Under the pieces are notes generated by a model. The model saw only the letters and a program-made list of their open reading frames with translations. It was not told where the DNA came from and did not search any database. The position numbers were made by a program, and so were the translations under genes. Shown piece after piece: positions 1-5,742 of a DNA stretch of 13,965 nt (the first letter of the stretch is position 1; every line of letters begins with the position of its first letter). Source of the DNA: a virus. Location: the UHGV virus genome UHGV-0234484. One strand, given 5' to 3'.

Positions 1-2
1 CC

Positions 3-362
3 AGCATCATCCAGGATAAGGCGAAAAAGGTGTTGGCGCTGAAAGTGGATCCGGAGTCGCCGGAGTCTTTTATGTTACGCCCAAAACGTCACCGCTGGGT
101 TAATGAAAAGTACACGCGCTGGGTTAAGACGCAGCCGTGCGCATGTTGTGGAAAACCTGCTGATGATCCCCACCACCTGATAGGCCACGGTCAGGGGGGA
201 ATGGGTACAAAAGCGCATGACCTTTTTGTGTTGCCTTTGTGCAGAAAGCATCACGACGAGCTGCATGCGGATACCGTGGCATTTGAAGAGAAGTATGGCT
301 CCCAGCTGGAGCTGATATTTCGTTTTATCGATCGCGCACTGGCGATTGGTGTGCTGGCCTGA
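3..362 (+). CDS. nin-region phage protein, DUF968/HNH-like C-terminal domain; 5' end lies outside the window
   Basis: Reading frame is open from the window edge (codons from position 3) to the stop at 360-362; the listed start at 30 is a GTG inside an open frame. The translation carries a Cys/His cluster (CACCGKP...DPHHL...[12 protein letters not shown]) typical of His-Me/HNH-like zinc-binding motifs found in DUF968 proteins, which sit just upstream of Q in lambdoid prophages. Family assignment is from memory. Confidence 0.6.
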
Positions 363-379
363 TTTTGTGGAGAAAGTTA

Positions 380-763
380 ATGCGTGATATTCAGATGGTT
401 CTTGAACGTTGGGGAGCGTGGGCGGCTAATAATCATGAAGATGTGACCTGGTCGTCCATTGCCGCCGGTTTTAAGGGATTAATTCCTTCAAAAGTAAAAT
501 CTCGCCCGCAATGTTGTGACGATGACGCGATGATCATTTGCGGGTGCATGGCCCGTCTGAAAAAGAACAACAGCGATTTACACGATTTATTAGTAGATTA
601 TTATGTATGTGGTATGACATTCATGTCACTGTCAAGTAAGCATTGCTGCTCGGATGGTTATATCGGGAAAAGGTTACAGAAGGCTGAGGGCATAATTGAA
701 GGGATGTTAATGGCATTAGATATCCGGTTAGATATGGATATCGTTGCTAATAATTCTAATTGA
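380..763 (+). CDS. quuD: late-gene antiterminator Q, small Q family (phage 82 / DLP12 QuuD-like), 127 aa
   Basis: ATG at 380 is preceded by a GGAGA Shine-Dalgarno at 369-373; the six-frame ORF begins at an upstream TTG at 365. The product has Cys-rich zinc-binding patches (CCDDD...CGC, KHCC) and sits between the nin region and the lysis cassette. Recognised from memory as the DLP12-type small Q; not confirmed by search. Confidence 0.75.
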
Positions 764-900
764 TATGCAATTGTTTACTAAAAGTTATTAAAAATGGGGC
801 GTGGAAACGCCCCCAAAATAAAGGGTAATATATAACAGAAGGTTTATATAGTAAGAAGCAAGGTAGTGCTTCTAAATGAAGTGGCTTGAGGGCTCCACTT
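764..900 (+). promoter_or_regulatory. candidate late promoter (pR') and Q-utilisation region downstream of Q
   Basis: AT-rich non-coding stretch immediately after Q and before a + strand hairpin/U-tract at 901-941. In lambdoid phages pR' and qut lie directly downstream of Q. I could not pin down exact -35/-10 hexamers by eye. Confidence 0.3.
787..814 (-). terminator. rho-independent terminator on the minus strand; likely 3' end of the nmpC / IpeX-like transcript
   Basis: Inverted repeat GGGGCG-TGGAAA-CGCCCC at 796-813. On the minus strand the hairpin is followed by AUUUUUAAUAA (complement of 787-795); on the + strand no U-tract follows it. Confidence 0.5.
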
Positions 901-951
901 ATATGTTGCGGAGGCAAAGCCTCCCGCAACATATCTTTTTCGTAAGTCAGA
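789..951 (-). ncRNA. ipeX: IpeX-like regulatory 3' UTR of the porin gene (inhibitor of porin expression)
   Basis: About 160 nt untranslated stretch between the nmpC stop (952) and the minus-strand terminator at 787-814, containing a long near-perfect inverted repeat at 901-934. Published work on DLP12 nmpC and PA-2 lc places ipeX in the UTR between the porin stop codon and its terminator. Positional and structural inference only. Confidence 0.4.
901..941 (+). terminator. hairpin plus U-tract on the + strand downstream of Q (tR'-like candidate)
   Basis: Inverted repeat ATATGTTGCGGAGGC / GCCTCCCGCAACATAT at 901-934 with one bulge, followed by CTTTTT at 935-940. The U-tract is on the + strand only. 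Confidence 0.4.
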
Positions 952-2034
952 TTAGAACTGATAAACCAGACCTACAGCGACGATGTCGTCGGTATCAATA
1001 CCAGCTGTTTTGGTAAACTTACTATCGTCAATTAAGTTGATTTTGTAATCAACAAAAGTGGACATGTTTTTATTAAAGTAGTAAGTAGCACCGACATCGA
1101 CATACTTGACTAAGTCTCGGTCACCATGAACACCAAGGTCTTTACCTTTTGACTGAAGGTAAGCAACAGATGGACGCAGACCGAAGTCAAACTGATATTG
1201 TGCTACTGCTTCAAAGTTTTGTGCTTTGTTTGCAATATGGTTATTACCAAAAACGGTCATATTCTGAGTTTCAGAATATGTGGTAGCCAGATAGATATTG
1301 TTCGCATCATATTTCAGGCCTGCAGCCCATACTTCCGCATTTTTGCCGGAGGCATTGAATTTGCTCTTACCATAGGCGACCTGACCGTCAGTGCGATCTG
1401 ATTTAGCATAGGTTGCACCCACGCCGAATCCTTCATACTCATAAGTAGTGGAGAAACCGAAACCATCACCATTGGCTTCAGTTACGTCAGTGCGGTCATT
1501 TTTACCCTGATACTGAGCAGCAAAGTTCAGGCCATCGACCAGACCAAAGAAGTCGTTGTTACGATAAGTTGCAACACCAGTAGTGCGACCAGTCATGAAC
1601 ACATCTGTTTGGGTCCAGGTATCACCACCGAATTCTGGCAGGACGTCAGTCCACGCACCGATGTCGTATGCTACACCGTAGTTACGGCCGTAATCGATTG
1701 AGCCGTAATCACCAAATTTCAGGCCTGCAAATGCAAGACGGGTTTTGTCTTTGGAAGAACCTTGAGATTCAGCACGGTTGCCTTTGAATTCATATTCCCA
1801 CTGACCGAAACCAGTCAGTTGATCGTTGATTTGGGTTTCACCTTTGAAGCCAAGACGGGCATAAGTAGTATCACCATCATCTGCATCATTAGAGGAGAAG
1901 TAGTGCTTGGCATTAACTTTCCCGTATAGATCCAGCTTGTTACTGTCTTTATTATAAATTTCAGCTGCCTGAGCAGACATCGCCATCAGTACTGATGCAG
2001 CTACAGCAGAAATTGCCACTGTTAATTTTTTCAT
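952..2034 (-). CDS. nmpC: outer-membrane general porin, OmpC/PhoE family (NmpC / Lc / OmpD-like), intact, 360 aa
   Basis: N-terminal signal peptide [23 protein letters not shown] then AEIYNKD; porin-like composition rich in G, Y, D, N; C-terminal ...VGLVYQF ending in Phe, as in beta-barrel OMPs. Sits between Q and the lysis genes, as nmpC does in DLP12. No IS interruption is visible. Confidence 0.85.
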
Positions 2035-2460
2035 TGTACGCCCTTTTTTTTGAACTATTATTAAAAAATGATGTCACTGCGCGATAAATATTCATCTAAT
2101 CAATGCGATTATTTCAAGATGTAAGTTTTAGTTTCTCATTTAATTTGTGAAGTAGATCTCTATTTTTATCTAAACCTTTTCTATCTAATCCTATTCATGG
2201 CTCTTGTTTGAACGAAAATAAATCTATTAGCTAATTTATATTAATGGCACTTATTTATAAGAGATCTATAATTCTTTAGCTTAATTTAAACAAACTAAAA
2301 ATAACATCGGAAATTATTCATTGGTTATTTGTTGAAGTTTTCTTATGTATTTGTGGTGGTGTTTTGAACACTCGGTGGCATTCTCACAAATATCATTTAG
2401 TAGTTTACGTACGTAAAAAATTGGTTATGCTGTTAAGAGTGGTTACTTCGTCACACAGCT
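2035..2460 (-). promoter_or_regulatory. AT-rich upstream regulatory region and promoter of the porin gene
   Basis: About 420 bp of very AT-rich non-coding DNA directly upstream of the nmpC start at 2034, with AAGGG about 6 nt before the ATG as an RBS. No ORF of 60 aa or more in any frame. Exact promoter elements not resolved. Confidence 0.4.
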
Positions 2461-2461
2461 T

Positions 2462-2494
2462 AAACCCGCCGTCGAGCGGGTTTTTCCATTTTTT
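2462..2494 (+). terminator. rho-independent terminator on the + strand, about 130 bp upstream of the holin
   Basis: AAACCCGC-CGTCGA-GCGGGTTT stem-loop at 2462-2484 followed by TTCCATTTTTT. No U-tract on the opposite strand. Confidence 0.55.
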
Positions 2495-2623
2495 GAGTCT
2501 CGATATTAGCTGATAACCCAATACCTGAGTTATTCACTGACTCCGAATCTGTTACGTTTCTGCCTTTATTGCGATACGTAGTATCCCCTTAATTTACACC
2601 CGCTTTGTCTGCGAGGTGGGGTT

Positions 2624-2839
2624 ATGAAATCCATGGATAAGTTAACAACGGGTGTCGCCTATGGCACCTCAGCAGGTAGTGCCGGATACTGGTTTTTACA
2701 GCTGCTAGATAAAGTCACGCCCTCACAGTGGGCGGCAATTGGAGTGCTGGGTAGCCTGGTATTTGGCCTGCTGACGTACCTGACAAACCTTTATTTCAAG
2801 ATTAAAGAAGATAAGCGCAAGGCTGCGAGAGGTGGATAA
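2624..2839 (+). CDS. essD: pinholin, phage 21 S21 class, with dual-start motif (Met1 antiholin / Met4 holin), 71 aa
   Basis: Begins MKSMDK (two Met codons three codons apart), then a Gly/Ala-rich TM1 ([15 protein letters not shown]), a second TM ([18 protein letters not shown]) and a charged C-terminus [22 protein letters not shown] Shine-Dalgarno at 2612-2620. Closely matches my memory of S21/EssD. Confidence 0.9.
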
Positions 2840-3336
2840 TGCCTCCATCATTACGAAAAGCTGTTGCTGCTGCTATTGGTGGCGGGGCTATTGCTATAGC
2901 ATCTGTGTTAATCACTGGCCCAAGTGGTAACGATGGTCTGGAAGGTGTGAGACATAATCCTTACAAAGACATAGTTGGTGTATGGACTGTATGTTACGGG
3001 CATACAGGAAAAGACATCATTCCCGGTAAAACGTATACCGAAGCAGAGTGCAAAGCCCTCCTGAATAAAGACCTTGCCACTGTCGCCAGACAAATTAACC
3101 CGTACATCAAAGTCGATATACCGGAAACAACGCGCGGCGCTCTTTACTCGTTCGTCTACAACGTGGGTGCTGGCAATTTCAGAACATCGACGCTTCTTCG
3201 CAAAATCAACCAGGGCGATATCAAAGGCGCATGTGACCAGCTACGTCGCTGGACATACGCTGGCGGTAAGCAATGGAAAGGGCTGATGACTCGCCGTGAG
3301 ATTGAGCGTGAAGTCTGTTTGTGGGGGCAGCAATGA
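2839..3336 (+). CDS. rrrD: SAR endolysin (signal-anchor-release lysozyme, R21 / RrrD-like), 165 aa
   Basis: N-terminal weakly hydrophobic Gly/Ala-rich SAR segment ([20 protein letters not shown]) then a T4-lysozyme-like catalytic region with E-8aa-D-5aa-T spacing ([17 protein letters not shown]). Start ATG overlaps the holin stop (TAATG at 2837-2841). Confidence 0.9.
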
Positions 3337-3797
3337 GCAGGTTAACCGCGATTATCTCCGCTCTGGTTATCTGCATCATCGTCTGTCTGTCATGGGCTGT
3401 TAATCATTACCGTGATAACGCCATTACCTATAAAGAACAGCGCGACAAAAATACCAGAGAACTGAAGCTGGCGAACGCGGCAATTACTGACATGCAGATG
3501 CGTCAGCGTGATGTTGCTGCGCTCGATGCAAAATACACGAAGGAGTTAGCTGATGCGAAAGCTGAAAATGATGCTCTGCGTAATGATGTTGCCGTTGGTC
3601 GTCGTCGGTTGCACATCAAAGCAGTCTGTCAGCCAGTGCGTGAAGCCACCACCGCCTCCGGCGTGGGTAATGCAGCCTCCCCCCGACTTACTGACTCCGC
3701 TGAACGGGATTATTTCACCCTCAGAGAACGAATCGACACAGTGACGAAGCAGGTTGGTTATCTGCAGGAATATGTGAAAAGACAATGCGTTCAGTGA
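3333..3797 (+). CDS. rzpD: i-spanin Rz (inner-membrane spanin subunit)
   Basis: ATG at 3333 overlaps the endolysin TGA (ATGA). N-terminal TM helix ([20 protein letters not shown]) followed by a coiled-coil-like periplasmic domain. The listed ORF start at 3321 is an upstream GTG. Confidence 0.85.
3553..3744 (+). CDS. rzoD: o-spanin Rz1 (outer-membrane lipoprotein), embedded in the +1 frame of Rz
   Basis: Entirely inside Rz in another frame. Lipoprotein signal with lipobox ([14 protein letters not shown]) followed by a proline-rich mature region ([14 protein letters not shown]), the Rz1 hallmark. Confidence 0.85.
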
Positions 3798-3867
3798 CAA
3801 AAAAATCACAATCCGTATCAAAGATGAGTAAAATCTGAACTCATAAACAAATGTTGGATACATATCA

Positions 3868-4425
3868 ATGATACAGGATTGGTTAGATTACCAAAATCTC
3901 GAGACTGCTAAGTCAGCAGCGAGGGCCGCGTGGGAGTCTTTAGAATGGACGAAAATTTCAGCGATTGCCTCTTGGGTTTCTGTAGTGCTCTCTGCAATAA
4001 CCTCAGGCGTAGCTATCTACGCAATGGGTACTTGGAAATCACAAGAGAAAGTAAAAGCTAAACGTGAGATCAAAAAAGCAGCAGGTAAGCTGTATGTAGA
4101 AGTAGGGCTAATGCCACAAATATTCACAAGCAAGAATGTTACTAACGGTCAGGTTGTTTCCAAGTCACCTAATTTTGAAGTGTTGGCTAGCCAAAAAAAT
4201 CAAGGCTATATTGATGAATGGTTAATGCACGAAAAGTTATCGGAACTGTATTTACAGCTCAAATACTTGGGGTATGCCGTAGTTGATGATCTGACTAGCG
4301 CCCAAAAAGATGCGCTAAACGGTTTGGATACACATTTTCAAAATTATTATTCTTACACCGAAAGTAAGGTGAATTTTGAAAAATCTTTAAAGGATTTTTT
4401 GGATAAGATGGACATCTATAAATAG
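3868..4425 (+). CDS. hypothetical membrane-anchored protein, 185 aa, low-GC accessory (moron) gene
   Basis: Clean ORF in lower-GC, AT-rich sequence between the spanins and cos. Predicted single TM segment around residues 29-53 (ISAIASWVSVVLSAITSGVAIYAMG) followed by a Lys-rich stretch and a roughly 130-aa soluble domain. Followed by a terminator. I do not recognise the family. Confidence 0.6.
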   Translation: MIQDWLDYQNLETAKSAARAAWESLEWTKISAIASWVSVVLSAITSGVAIYAMGTWKSQEKVKAKREIKKAAGKLYVEVGLMPQIFTSKNVTNGQVVSKSPNFEVLASQKNQGYIDEWLMHEKLSELYLQLKYLGYAVVDDLTSAQKDALNGLDTHFQNYYSYTESKVNFEKSLKDFLDKMDIYK

Positions 4426-4442
4426 TCAAATCCTATCGGTAA

Positions 4443-4466
4443 GCCGCCTCCGGGCGGTTTTTTATT
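4443..4466 (+). terminator. rho-independent terminator after the 185-aa ORF
   Basis: CCGCC-TCCG-GGCGG stem-loop at 4444-4457 followed by TTTTTTATT, 18 nt after the stop at 4425. Confidence 0.5.
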
Positions 4467-4504
4467 GCCATCACAATGGGCAGGCCCATCGTAACGGCAG
4501 TATC

Positions 4505-4831
4505 TTATATACACCAATGACATCTCTGGATGGTTGGCAGTCCTGTTAGTTGGCCTGCGGTGGACTCGGCCTCGTCAAGCGTAAGAACACATACTTTTTG
4601 GTATCGGCCAGTAGTAAAGCTGGCGTGATTTTTAGGACTGATTAATGGGTTGATTGATTTGCATGAGGCTCGATGAATCCGCGTAAATCTGGCATCACTT
4701 TTTCTGCCTTTCCCGCTGGCCGACTTAAGCAGATTAATAACGAATCCATCGGAATGGGTCGCTAGCCAACTCTTGTACATCGCTTCGCTATCAACATCCT
4801 GTATTTCACTGCTGAAAATAGTAATGCCCAT
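4505..4831 (-). CDS. hypothetical protein, 108 aa, convergent with the 185-aa ORF
   Basis: Minus-strand ORF with ATG at 4829-4831 and TAA at 4505-4507, preceded on its own strand by an AT-rich stretch and GGAAAAAAT before the ATG. Product ends ...QRCHWCI and contains HRASCKS. No recognisable family. It occupies the position where lambda carries bor, but the sequence is unrelated to Bor as I remember it. Confidence 0.45.
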   Translation of the reverse strand: MGITIFSSEIQDVDSEAMYKSWLATHSDGFVINLLKSASGKGRKSDARFTRIHRASCKSINPLISPKNHASFTTGRYQKVCVLTLDEAESTAGQLTGLPTIQRCHWCI

Positions 4832-4989
4832 ATTTTTTCCGTATATGACTAACTGATATGAATATGTATCAGGACTATTTTATGGCAAAACCAGAGTAGA
4901 AGGCCATTGGGTCCGGAGTGTTGATGTGAACAAATTACCCCCCCCTCTAAGTGTAATTGATATGTATTATCATTTTCGGGTCCTTTCCG

Positions 4990-5190
4990 GCGATCCGGAG
5001 CGTTACGGGGCGGAAGGCGCGCGGGTTTTCGCTATTTATGAAAATTTTCCGGTTTAAGGCGTTTCCGTTCTTCTTCGCCGTAACTTAATGTTTTTATTTA
5101 AAACACCCTCTGAAAAGAAAGGAAACGACAGGTGCTGAAAACGAGCTTTTTGGCCTCTGTCGTTTCCTTTCTCTGTTTTTGTCCGTGGAA
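4990..5190 (+). other. cos: cos site (cosQ / cosN / cosB) for terminase-mediated packaging; cosN at about 5008-5019
   Basis: From 5020 onward the sequence (CGCGGGTTTTCGCTATTTATGAAAATTTTCCGGTTTAAGGCGTTTCCGTTCTTCTTCG...) matches my memory of the lambda left end (cosB with R3/I1/R2/R1) almost base for base, up to the nu1 ATG at 5197. The 12 nt just before it read GGGCGGAAGGCG, against lambda cosN GGGCGGCGACCT. Confidence 0.8.
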
Positions 5191-5196
5191 TGAACA

Positions 5197-5716
5197 ATGG
5201 AAGTCAACAAAAAGCAGCTGGCTGACATTTTCGGCGCGAGTATCCGTACCATTCAGAACTGGCAGGAGCAGGGAATGCCCGTTCTGCGGGGTGGTGGCAA
5301 GGGTAATGAAGTGCTTTATGACTCTGCCGCCGCCATAAAATGGTATGCCGAAAGGGATGCTGAAATTGAGAACGAAAAGCTGCGCCGGGAAGTTGAAGAA
5401 CTGCGGCAGGCCAGCGAGACAGATCTCCAGCCAGGGACTATTGAGTACGAACGCCATCGACTTACGCGTGCGCAGGCCGACGCACAGGAGCTGAAAAATG
5501 CCAGAGACTCCGCTGAAGTGGTGGAAACCGCATTCTGTACTTTCGTGCTGTCGCGGATCGCAGGTGAAATTGCCAGTATTCTCGACGGGATCCCCCTGTC
5601 GGTGCAGCGGCGTTTTCCGGAACTGGAAAACCGACATGTTGATTTCCTGAAACGGGATATCATCAAAGCCATGAACAAAGCAGCCGCGCTGGATGAACTG
5701 ATACCGGGGTTGCTGA

Positions 5717-5742
<26 letters not shown>
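5197..5742 (+). CDS. nu1: terminase small subunit Nu1, 181 aa
   Basis: MEVNKKQLADIFGASIRTIQNWQEQGMPVLRGGGKGNEV... corresponds to lambda gpNu1 (winged helix-turn-helix N-terminus) at the same length and the same distance from cos. Confidence 0.95.

What the first reader, a model, noticed from the sequence alone, without database searches (positions are those of the whole stretch)
952..2034. Intact porin moron in antisense orientation inside the late operon path
The porin gene is intact, with signal peptide and C-terminal Phe. This contrasts with E. coli K-12 DLP12, where nmpC is disrupted by IS5, and implies functional lysogenic conversion of the outer membrane. It is transcribed opposite to the Q-dependent late transcript, which must pass through it to reach the holin, endolysin and spanin genes. 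That predicts transcriptional collision and antisense silencing of the porin during induction.
Basis: partly seen in the sequence, partly recalled or inferred. Interest (0 to 1): 0.45.

Follow-up and report, generated by a model that had tools for sequence, protein, structure and literature searches.

The report
Known prophage porin, outside late operon
The window carries an intact copy of the long-known Lc/NmpC porin of lambda-like E. coli prophages, but it most likely lies upstream of the late promoter rather than inside the late transcript, so the predicted collision with late transcription is not supported.

Summary
Observation confirmed. ORF 952-2034 (minus strand) encodes an intact 360-aa general porin with a 23-residue signal peptide, the PEFGGD eyelet motif and a C-terminal Phe. 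It is 100% identical to the porin of phages Perceval (strain LF82) and PhiR49_1, 91% identical to Lc of phage PA-2 and 63% to K-12 OmpC. The Q-porin-holin arrangement is found in 2465 of 5426 complete E. coli genomes, and 56 of 64 IMG/VR copies are complete ORFs. The IS5-disrupted K-12 copy is therefore the exception. Expression of this same protein in a lysogen is already published.

The gene is antisense to Q and the lysis genes, but the Q-dependent late promoter most likely lies downstream of it, at 2404-2431, with its start near 2438 and a terminator hairpin at 2462-2491. This unit is homologous to the pR' of Stx phage Sp5, whose start site was mapped by dRNA-seq and whose Q is 75% identical to this one. 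In 71 of 71 informative related loci a Q of this family lies 63-2960 bp upstream of the element, with variable, mostly antisense cargo in between. The porin and pR' are thus divergent units, and no pR' transcript needs to cross the porin. This is a known system of low interest.

The parts
380..763 (+). Antiterminator Q of the QuuD/Q933W type. The ORF listing extends the ORF to a TTG at 365, but relatives start at MRDIQ.
   Evidence: Pfam Phage_antitermQ, E=2.8e-53. It is 95% identical to DLP12 QuuD, 75% to the Stx2-phage Q and 47% to the SfII Q. It is distantly related to the Q21 structures 6P18 and 6JNX (E=7.8e-8).
796..813 (-). Intrinsic terminator for the porin transcript: a GC hairpin followed by AUUUUUAAU on the minus strand.
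   Evidence: Terminator scan. The fold gives -13.8 kcal/mol, z=-2.95.
901..940 (+). Plus-strand intrinsic terminator downstream of Q: a 14-15 bp stem followed by CUUUUU. On the minus strand the same hairpin lies in the porin 3' UTR and has no U tract.
   Evidence: The fold gives -22.6 kcal/mol, z=-4.9, and 0 of 200 shuffles fold as well. Coordinates were checked.
952..2034 (-). Intact Lc/NmpC-type general porin gene. The signal peptide is encoded by 1966-2034 and the mature protein by 955-1965.
   Evidence: It is 91% identical to PA-2 Lc, 63% to K-12 OmpC, and 360/360 identical to the Perceval and PhiR49_1 porins.
2035..2401 (-). AT-rich (27% GC) porin upstream regulatory region. It contains the 21-mer at 2143-2163 that the PA-2 record annotates as a CRP site. 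The porin promoter itself was not located.
   Evidence: The region is 94% identical to the PA-2 and DLP12 intergenic regions. The CRP 21-mer matches exactly.
2051..2078 (+). Putative sigma-E promoter of the lysis cassette (TGAACTA-N16-TCACT), with +1 near 2083-2086.
   Evidence: Primer Pdlp12Fw maps to 1962-1981. PMC7918800 describes its amplicon as -121 to +650 relative to the start site reported by Rueggeberg 2015. The match to the sigma-E consensus rests on my own knowledge and is inferred.
2404..2431 (+). Late promoter pR' for this Q family: -35 TTTACG (2404-2409), a 16-nt spacer holding the palindrome ACGTACGT plus an A run (a candidate Q-binding element), and -10 TATGCT (2426-2431). The start site is at about A2438.
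   Evidence: It is homologous to the pR' of Sakai Sp5. The Sp5 start site is fixed by dRNA-seq, the tR' 3' end at +258 and RNase E cleavage at +173 (PMC7547250), which I mapped onto L005 positions 746, 1003 and 918. Only one copy exists in the window.
2438..2461 (+). Conserved initial transcribed region (AGTGGTTACTTCGTCACACAG...). It is probably the site of the sigma-dependent pause and Q engagement.
   Evidence: It is near-invariant in 53 distinct variants from 118 loci, although the core was the search pattern itself. It is the same 21-mer that the 1986 PA-2 record labels as a second CRP site.
2462..2494 (+). tR'-like intrinsic terminator: an 8-bp GC-rich stem followed by UUUUUCCAUUUUUU. It would yield a terminated leader RNA of about 50 nt.
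   Evidence: Terminator scan and fold. The hairpin is conserved, with stem and loop variants, in related loci.
2624..3797 (+). Lysis cassette: S21-type holin (2624-2839), SAR-type lysozyme (2839-3336), Rz (3321-3797) and embedded Rz1 (3553-3744).
   Evidence: Pfam Phage_holin_2_1, Phage_lysozyme, Phage_lysis and Rz1. The equivalent genes are annotated in the 434B and DLP12 records.

Best explanation
The ORF is an allele of the lambdoid-prophage porin Lc/NmpC. It is a self-contained moron, with its own regulatory region and terminator, that occupies the variable cargo slot between the antiterminator gene Q and Q's target promoter pR'. In the lysogen it is transcribed leftward from the AT-rich region at 2035-2400, exported through its 23-residue signal peptide, and inserted in the outer membrane as a trimeric 16-strand general porin. 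This changes permeability and the receptor surface. Its sequence variation is concentrated in a few short patches that are likely surface loops. Late transcription most likely starts to the right of the porin at about 2438. Without Q it stops, at least in part, at the hairpin 2462-2491. With Q it continues into holin, endolysin, spanins and the head genes. The porin and the late operon are therefore divergent units, and the terminator at 901-940 shields the porin from unmodified transcription leaving Q. Shown here: ORF integrity, family membership, identity to an expressed prophage porin, homology of 2404-2491 to a mapped pR', and its linkage to this Q family. Inferred: promoter activity and start site in this particular phage, the efficiency of the two terminators, and the porin's phenotype.
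For: Porin identity and integrity. Prevalence and usual intactness: 2465 of 5426 genomes; 56 complete ORFs of 64; many isolated plaque-forming phages carry the module. Expression of the identical or near-identical gene in lysogens. pR' placement: window 2401-2485 matches the DNA that abuts Q in Stx phages, with alignments. In Sp5 the published geometry (+173 RNase E site, +258 3' end) places +1 seven nt after the -10 TATCAT, which corresponds to window A2438. The Q proteins are 75% identical. In 71 of 71 loci with enough upstream DNA, a Q of this family lies 63-2960 bp upstream of the element. Phage SfII has the same layout, Q, two antisense genes, the element, then a different holin. The window holds no second copy and no promoter-like site in 764-951. 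Terminators.
Against: No transcript data exist for this phage. The window -10 (TATGCT) and -35 (TTTACG) match the consensus at only 8 of 12 positions and were not flagged by the consensus scan. The Sakai start site was transferred by sequence geometry, because the paper uses coordinates from NC_002695.1 and I could read only version .2. In Sp5 the homologous first hairpin (+24 to +50) evidently lets RNA polymerase through to +258, so the terminator at 2462-2491 may be weak. The pattern search fixed the conserved core, so conservation of that core is partly by construction. The primary DLP12 papers (Rueggeberg 2013 and 2015) could not be read.
Confidence: 0.85

Rival explanations
1. One reading: pR' lies immediately downstream of Q, as in lambda, at 764-951. 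The Q-modified late transcript would then run antisense through the whole porin gene to reach the lysis genes, colliding with porin transcription and silencing it on induction.
For: In lambda, 21, 82 and the Stx phages pR' abuts Q (general knowledge; the Stx case is seen). The hairpin at 901-940 on the plus strand could be read as a tR'. A GTTTAC at 773-778 aligns with the -35 of the Sakai pR'.
Against: The region 764-900 holds no promoter-like site. The conserved pR' core, leader and terminator of this Q family are absent there and occur only once, at 2404-2491. Homology with the Stx phage ends inside the last codons of Q, at about 739, and resumes at about 2402. That pattern indicates cargo inserted between Q and pR'. 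Other members of the family show the same split with different cargo.
Confidence: 0.05
2. Antisense transcription across the porin does occur during lytic growth, but it comes from N-antiterminated early rightward (pR) transcription. This would read through Q and the 901-940 terminator and dampen porin expression independently of pR'.
For: It is established lambda biology that N-modified polymerase ignores intrinsic terminators and reads beyond Q (my own knowledge). Q and the porin are convergent, with only intrinsic terminators between them.
Against: The N, nut and pR region lies outside the window, so the type of early antitermination used by this phage is unknown. There are no data on read-through. 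The effect would come late in a cell that is already committed to lysis, so any biological consequence is doubtful.
Confidence: 0.3
3. The porin is silent cargo, for example H-NS-silenced AT-rich DNA, and does not contribute to the outer membrane of the lysogen.
For: The upstream region is 27% GC, which is typical of xenogeneically silenced DNA (my own knowledge). K-12 tolerates loss of the gene.
Against: The identical gene in Perceval is among the few prophage genes transcribed above background in LF82. The CFT073 homologues are detected as protein. Complete ORFs are retained in 56 of 64 contigs, and variation is focused in discrete patches, which suggests selection on an exposed protein.
Confidence: 0.1

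Closest known systems
Lc (protein 2) porin of lambdoid phage PA-2 and NmpC of the K-12 cryptic prophage DLP12 (qsr')
   Same: The gene sits in the same position and orientation between the same Q and the S21-type lysis cassette. The protein is 91% identical to Lc. The flanking intergenic DNA is about 94% identical, including the CRP 21-mer and the pR' unit.
   Different: The protein is 360 aa rather than 365 aa, with substitutions and indels clustered at residues 181-187, 218-232, 268-272, 306-310 and 339-350. Unlike K-12 nmpC, it is not interrupted by IS5.
Porin of prophage Perceval (AIEC LF82) and of phage PhiR49_1
   Same: The protein is identical at 360 of 360 residues, and the DNA over 740-2640 is 99.7% identical to Perceval. 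The Perceval gene is reported as a moron expressed in the lysogen.
   Different: Nothing in the porin module differs. The genes downstream of Rz differ from PhiR49_1 (compare).
Chromosomal general porins OmpC, OmpF and PhoE
   Same: The protein shows a full-length Porin_1 match, 63% identity to OmpC, a conserved PEFGGD eyelet motif and a C-terminal YQF.
   Different: It is prophage-borne, its loop regions are shorter than those of OmpC (gaps), and it scores below the PhoE and OmpF equivalog cut-offs.
pR'-tR' unit of the Stx phages Sp5 and 933W (source of the StxS RNA)
   Same: The Q family is the same (75% identity). The -35, spacer palindrome, -10, leader and first hairpin are all homologous.
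   Different: In the Stx phages the unit overlaps the end of Q, and a second terminator at +258 follows it, with tRNA and stx cargo further downstream. In the window the cargo lies upstream of the unit, and only the first hairpin precedes the holin.

Membership tests
General bacterial porin (Pfam Porin_1; OmpC/OmpF/PhoE) | Full-length match to the family profile | tested here: met
   PF00267 matches at E=1.9e-151, profile positions 1-337 of 337. The NCBIfam OmpC subfamily scores 521 bits against a cut-off of 484.
General bacterial porin (Pfam Porin_1; OmpC/OmpF/PhoE) | Cleavable Sec signal peptide and a mature N-terminus of the form AE(I/V)YNKD | tested here: met
   Residues 1-23 end in AQA. 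Mature PDB chains align from residue 24. The PA-2 record annotates the same sig_peptide.
General bacterial porin (Pfam Porin_1; OmpC/OmpF/PhoE) | L3 eyelet motif PEFGGD and a C-terminal aromatic beta-signal ending in Phe | tested here: met
   LPEFGGD lies at residues 132-138 and the C-terminus is VGLVYQF.
General bacterial porin (Pfam Porin_1; OmpC/OmpF/PhoE) | Trimeric 16-strand barrel with channel activity | not tested
   This is inferred from 63% identity to OmpC and gap-poor alignment to solved structures. No model was built because the homology is unambiguous.
Lc/NmpC prophage porin | High identity to Lc/NmpC, and a location between the QuuD-type Q and the S21-type holin on the opposite strand | tested here: met
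   The protein is 91% identical to Lc. The synteny matches PA-2, DLP12 and 434B.
Moron (an autonomous transcription unit inserted in a phage genome and expressed from the prophage) | Absent from the same site in related phages, with discrete junctions | tested here: met
   The Stx phages have Q directly abutting pR'. The junctions in the window lie at about 739 and about 2402. Other cargo occupies the same slot in other loci.
Moron (an autonomous transcription unit inserted in a phage genome and expressed from the prophage) | Its own terminator and promoter | tested here: inconclusive
   A minus-strand terminator lies at 813-796. A conserved upstream region carries the annotated CRP site, but I could not pinpoint the -35, -10 or start site.
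Moron (an autonomous transcription unit inserted in a phage genome and expressed from the prophage) | Expression in the lysogen | not testable with these tools
   This is reported for the identical gene in Perceval/LF82 (PMC9928086) and for the CFT073 homologues.
Gene of the Q-dependent late (pR') transcription unit | Location downstream of pR', whether co-oriented with the late transcript or traversed by it | tested here: not met
   The pR' homologue lies at 2404-2431 with its start near 2438. The porin occupies 952-2034, which is upstream of and divergent from it.
Q-dependent regulatory cassette (Q gene, pR' with Q-binding element, pause element, terminator, late genes) | A Q-family-specific promoter and leader followed by an intrinsic terminator, placed ahead of the lysis genes | tested here: met
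   The element is conserved and linked to this Q family in 71 of 71 loci. The terminator is supported, and the holin starts 130 nt after it.
Q-dependent regulatory cassette (Q gene, pR' with Q-binding element, pause element, terminator, late genes) | Q binding to the element and Q-dependent read-through | not testable with these tools
   There is only an analogy: the Q21 binding element lies within -40 to -1 of pR'21 (bioRxiv 10.1101/651190). A candidate palindrome in the window's promoter covaries with the Q clade.

The most novel reading that the evidence does not exclude
In the QuuD/Q933W family of lambdoid phages, the interval between the Q stop codon and the -35 of pR' is a dedicated cargo slot. 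It holds 0 to 3 kb of almost always antisense-oriented genes: the porin here, and elsewhere Kiwa, PDC-S20, an ATPase with a methylase, and other candidate defence genes. The slot is insulated on one side by the terminator after Q and on the other by a divergent pR'. Q must therefore act on a promoter up to 3 kb away. If this slot has not been described, it would be a useful landmark for finding lysogen-expressed genes. The arrangement itself is well supported here. The probability given is that it is both real and not already described in this form.
Probability: 0.4. Interest if true: 0.35.

Novelty: already known. Interest (0 to 1): 0.12.

Why it matters
The result matters mainly as a correction. 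The Lc/NmpC porin is a textbook lysogenic-conversion gene, and this allele is identical to ones in sequenced, inducible phages, so nothing new is learned about the porin itself. The useful point concerns layout. In this Q family, cargo can sit either upstream of pR', as the porin and the defence genes do, or downstream of tR', as stx does. Only the downstream kind is coupled to prophage induction. That distinction determines whether a moron is a lysogen-expressed trait or an induction-dependent one. It should be checked before predicting transcriptional interference from gene order alone.

Tried and rejected
(1) I looked for a promoter or a second pR' copy in the Q-porin gap (764-951). There was no consensus hit and no copy of the conserved core, even with 3 mismatches allowed. 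Only a GTTTAC hexamer aligns with the -35 of the Sakai pR'.
(2) Rfam, searched at E<=1 over 1-5300, returned only chance miRNA and sRNA hits, so no curated family covers the pR' leader.
(3) I tried to read the primary DLP12 papers (Rueggeberg 2013 and 2015, Toba 2011). None is held. I used primer sequences from a citing paper instead. The reverse primer does not match exactly and probably contains typing errors.
(4) I tried to locate the porin's own -35 and -10 by eye and by the scan, and found no convincing site. I left it unassigned.
(5) The K-12 RefSeq annotation of the quuD-essD interval has no regulatory or ncRNA feature.
(6) PADLOC, Pfam and NCBIfam searches on ORFs 3868-4425 and 4505-4831 gave nothing beyond phrog_6169, a family of unknown function.
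(7) I considered whether the 901-940 hairpin could be a tR'. I rejected this because no promoter or leader precedes it.

Full report
**Observation.** The window is the right arm of a lambda-like prophage. On the plus strand it carries the 3' part of a DUF968/YdfU gene (30-362), the antiterminator Q (380-763), an S21-type holin (2624-2839), a lysozyme (2839-3336), Rz/Rz1 (3321-3797 and 3553-3744), Nu1 (5197-5742), and then the terminase, portal and head genes. On the minus strand, 952-2034 is an uninterrupted 360-codon ORF. It matches Pfam Porin_1 over the whole profile (E=1.9e-151) and passes the NCBIfam OmpC-subfamily cut-off. It aligns with mature OmpC, PhoE and OmpF structures from residue 24 to the last residue. 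The 23-residue signal peptide, the mature start AEIYNKD, the PEFGGD eyelet motif and the C-terminal YQF are all present.

**What the porin is.** It is an allele of the lambdoid-phage porin Lc/NmpC. It is 91% identical to Lc of phage PA-2 and 63% identical to K-12 OmpC. It is identical at all 360 residues to the porins of phage Perceval (prophage of AIEC LF82) and phage PhiR49_1.

- The whole Q-porin-holin segment is 99.7-99.8% identical to those two phages.
- The same segment is about 94% identical to PA-2 and K-12 DLP12 in the intergenic regions.
- The arrangement is very common. A 2-kb query spanning it is at least 80% covered in 2465 of 5426 complete E. coli genomes, and it occurs in dozens of isolated phages.
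- Of 64 IMG/VR contigs that carry the porin start, 56 have complete ORFs (38 of 360 aa, 17 of 365 aa, one of 355 aa) and 8 run off the contig.

The IS5-disrupted K-12 copy is therefore the exception, and intactness is not remarkable. Differences between alleles cluster in five short patches. These coincide with the gapped regions of the alignment with OmpC. From general knowledge of porin structure I take them to be surface loops.

**Expression in lysogens.** Expression is already documented for the identical or near-identical gene. In LF82 the Perceval 'outer membrane porin NmpC' is listed among the prophage genes expressed above local background, at 10-fold (PMC9928086). In CFT073 two nmpC genes are preferentially expressed at 37 C at both RNA and protein level (PMC12890032). 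Lysogenic conversion by PA-2 Lc is classical (my own knowledge).

**Where the late promoter lies.** Four lines of evidence argue against this.

- *No promoter next to Q.* The 189-bp Q-porin gap (764-951) has no promoter-like site. It contains two hairpins instead. One, at 901-940, is a strong plus-strand terminator (-22.6 kcal/mol, z=-4.9, followed by CUUUUU). The other, at 813-796, is a minus-strand terminator with a U tract.
- *Homology to a mapped pR'.* The segment 2401-2485 is the only part of the porin-holin spacer with homologues outside porin-carrying phages. It matches the DNA that overlaps the end of Q in hundreds of Stx phages, and the DNA just upstream of the holin in Shigella phage SfII. 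The Stx-phage Q is 75% identical to the window's Q, and the SfII Q is 47% identical.
- *A published start site fits the element.* In Sakai Sp5 the pR' start was mapped by dRNA-seq. The 3' end lies 258 nt downstream at tR', and RNase E cuts GU/AUU at +173 (PMC7547250). On the Sp5 sequence (L005) the tR' T run ends at 1003 and the GUAUU cut lies at 918/919. Both place +1 at A746, seven nt after a TATCAT -10 (734-739), with a TTTACG -35 sixteen nt upstream. The homologous positions in the window are -35 TTTACG (2404-2409), -10 TATGCT (2426-2431) and +1 at about A2438. A near-invariant leader and a GC-rich hairpin with a T run (2462-2494) follow.
- *Linkage to this Q family.* A scan of IMG/VR for the leader core returned 120 loci. 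In all 71 loci with more than 3.2 kb of upstream DNA, a Q of this family lies upstream, at distances from 63 or 94 bp (direct abutment) to 2960 bp.

The flanks of the element were not part of the search pattern, yet they keep a TAnnnT -10, an A run and the terminator hairpin. An 8-bp palindrome at about -33 to -26 changes with the Q clade: ACGTACGT, ACGATCGT, GCGTACGC or GCGGTCCGC. This palindrome is a plausible Q-binding element, because the Q21 binding element lies within -40 to -1 of its promoter. Homology between the window and Sp5 breaks inside the last codons of Q, at about 739, and resumes at about 2402. The 1.66 kb between those points, comprising the terminators, the porin and its regulatory region, is therefore cargo inserted between Q and pR'.

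**Consequence for the interpretation.** The porin and the late operon are divergent units. Their start points are about 400 bp apart, and a pR' transcript never needs to cross the porin. Primer coordinates from PMC7918800 place the previously reported start of the DLP12 lysis-cassette transcript at about window 2083. That is next to a sigma-E-like TGAACTA-N16-TCACT motif at 2051-2078, which is also to the right of the porin start codon and also points rightward. The predicted collision with the Q-dependent transcript, and the resulting antisense silencing, are therefore not supported. What remains possible is antisense read-through from N-antiterminated early transcription passing Q and the 901-940 terminator. 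The early region lies outside the window, so this could not be examined.

**Caveats.** There are no transcript data for this phage. Its pR' hexamers are weak, matching the consensus at 8 of 12 positions. The Sakai coordinates had to be transferred by geometry, because the paper used an earlier version of the record. In Sp5, polymerase evidently passes the homologous first hairpin to reach +258, so the hairpin at 2462-2494 may be a leaky terminator. A leaky terminator would fit the low constitutive expression of the DLP12 lysis genes reported in the literature (my own recollection of Toba 2011, which I could not read).

**Comparison and novelty.** The porin, its position and its expression in lysogens are all known, so this is a new copy of a known allele. 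The one possibly under-appreciated point concerns the Q-to-pR' interval, which acts as a general cargo slot.

- In other members of the family the slot holds Kiwa (a KwaB homologue at E=2e-150 with a transmembrane partner), a PDC-S20 KAP-type NTPase, a HEC-04-like ATPase with a cytosine methylase, an HNH/PDC-M68A-like protein, and several unknowns.
- This cargo is almost always on the strand opposite to Q.

I could not establish whether this slot has been described before.

**Verdict.** The system is already known and of low interest.

Noticed in passing
window 764-2401; loci L009, L011, L016, L018, L019, L034, L041, L069, L078, L079, L108, L109: The interval between Q and pR' is a variable cargo slot in this Q family, spanning 63 to 2960 bp. 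Apart from the porin it holds Kiwa (KwaB plus a transmembrane partner), a PDC-S20 KAP NTPase, a HEC-04-like ATPase with a C5 methylase, a PDC-M68A/HNH-like protein and unknowns. Nearly all of these genes are antisense to Q.
   Followed up: partly
window 2410-2425 and homologous positions in L006-L125: An 8-bp palindrome followed by an A run lies in the pR' spacer at about -33 to -17. It changes with the Q clade: ACGTACGT with the porin-linked Q, ACGATCGT with the Stx Q, and GCGTACGC or GCGGTCCGC with the Qs that are 45-50% identical. It is a candidate Q-binding element.
   Followed up: partly
window 2438-2458: The 21-mer annotated in the 1986 PA-2 GenBank record as a second CRP-binding site is exactly +1 to +21 of the conserved pR' leader. 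It has only one good CRP half-site (TCACA).
   Followed up: partly
L005 769-795 (Sakai Sp5), homologous to window 2462-2494: In Sp5 the first terminator-like hairpin sits at +24 to +50 of pR', yet the published StxS precursor extends to +258. The hairpin is therefore either a leaky terminator or has another role. In the window it is the only hairpin before the holin.
   Followed up: no
window 2051-2078: A sigma-E-like promoter motif (TGAACTA-N16-TCACT) faces the lysis genes only 17-44 bp from the porin start codon. Its predicted +1, near 2083, agrees with the -121 primer position cited for the RpoE-dependent DLP12 lysis promoter. Its transcript would overlap the porin 5' region head-on.
   Followed up: partly
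window 773-778: A GTTTAC immediately after the Q stop codon aligns with the -35 region of the Sakai pR'. It may be a vestige of the junction where the cargo was inserted, or it may be chance.
   Followed up: no
window 3868-4425 (+) and 4505-4831 (-): Two ORFs of unknown function fill the slot between Rz and Nu1, with a terminator-like hairpin at 4441-4460 between them. K-12 DLP12 has borD and ybcV in this slot, and PhiR49_1 has KilA-N and other genes. The first ORF encodes 185 aa with a predicted membrane segment and matches only phrog_6169. The second encodes 108 aa and matches no family. Neither has a PADLOC, Pfam or NCBIfam hit.
   Followed up: partly
window 1258-1280 (-): A terminator-like 10-bp hairpin followed by a T run lies inside the porin coding sequence on the sense strand. 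It has only 3 GC pairs and is probably a chance match.
   Followed up: no
window 796-940: The Q and porin transcripts are convergent, and each terminator lies beyond the other. Their 3' ends would therefore overlap by about 145 nt.
   Followed up: no
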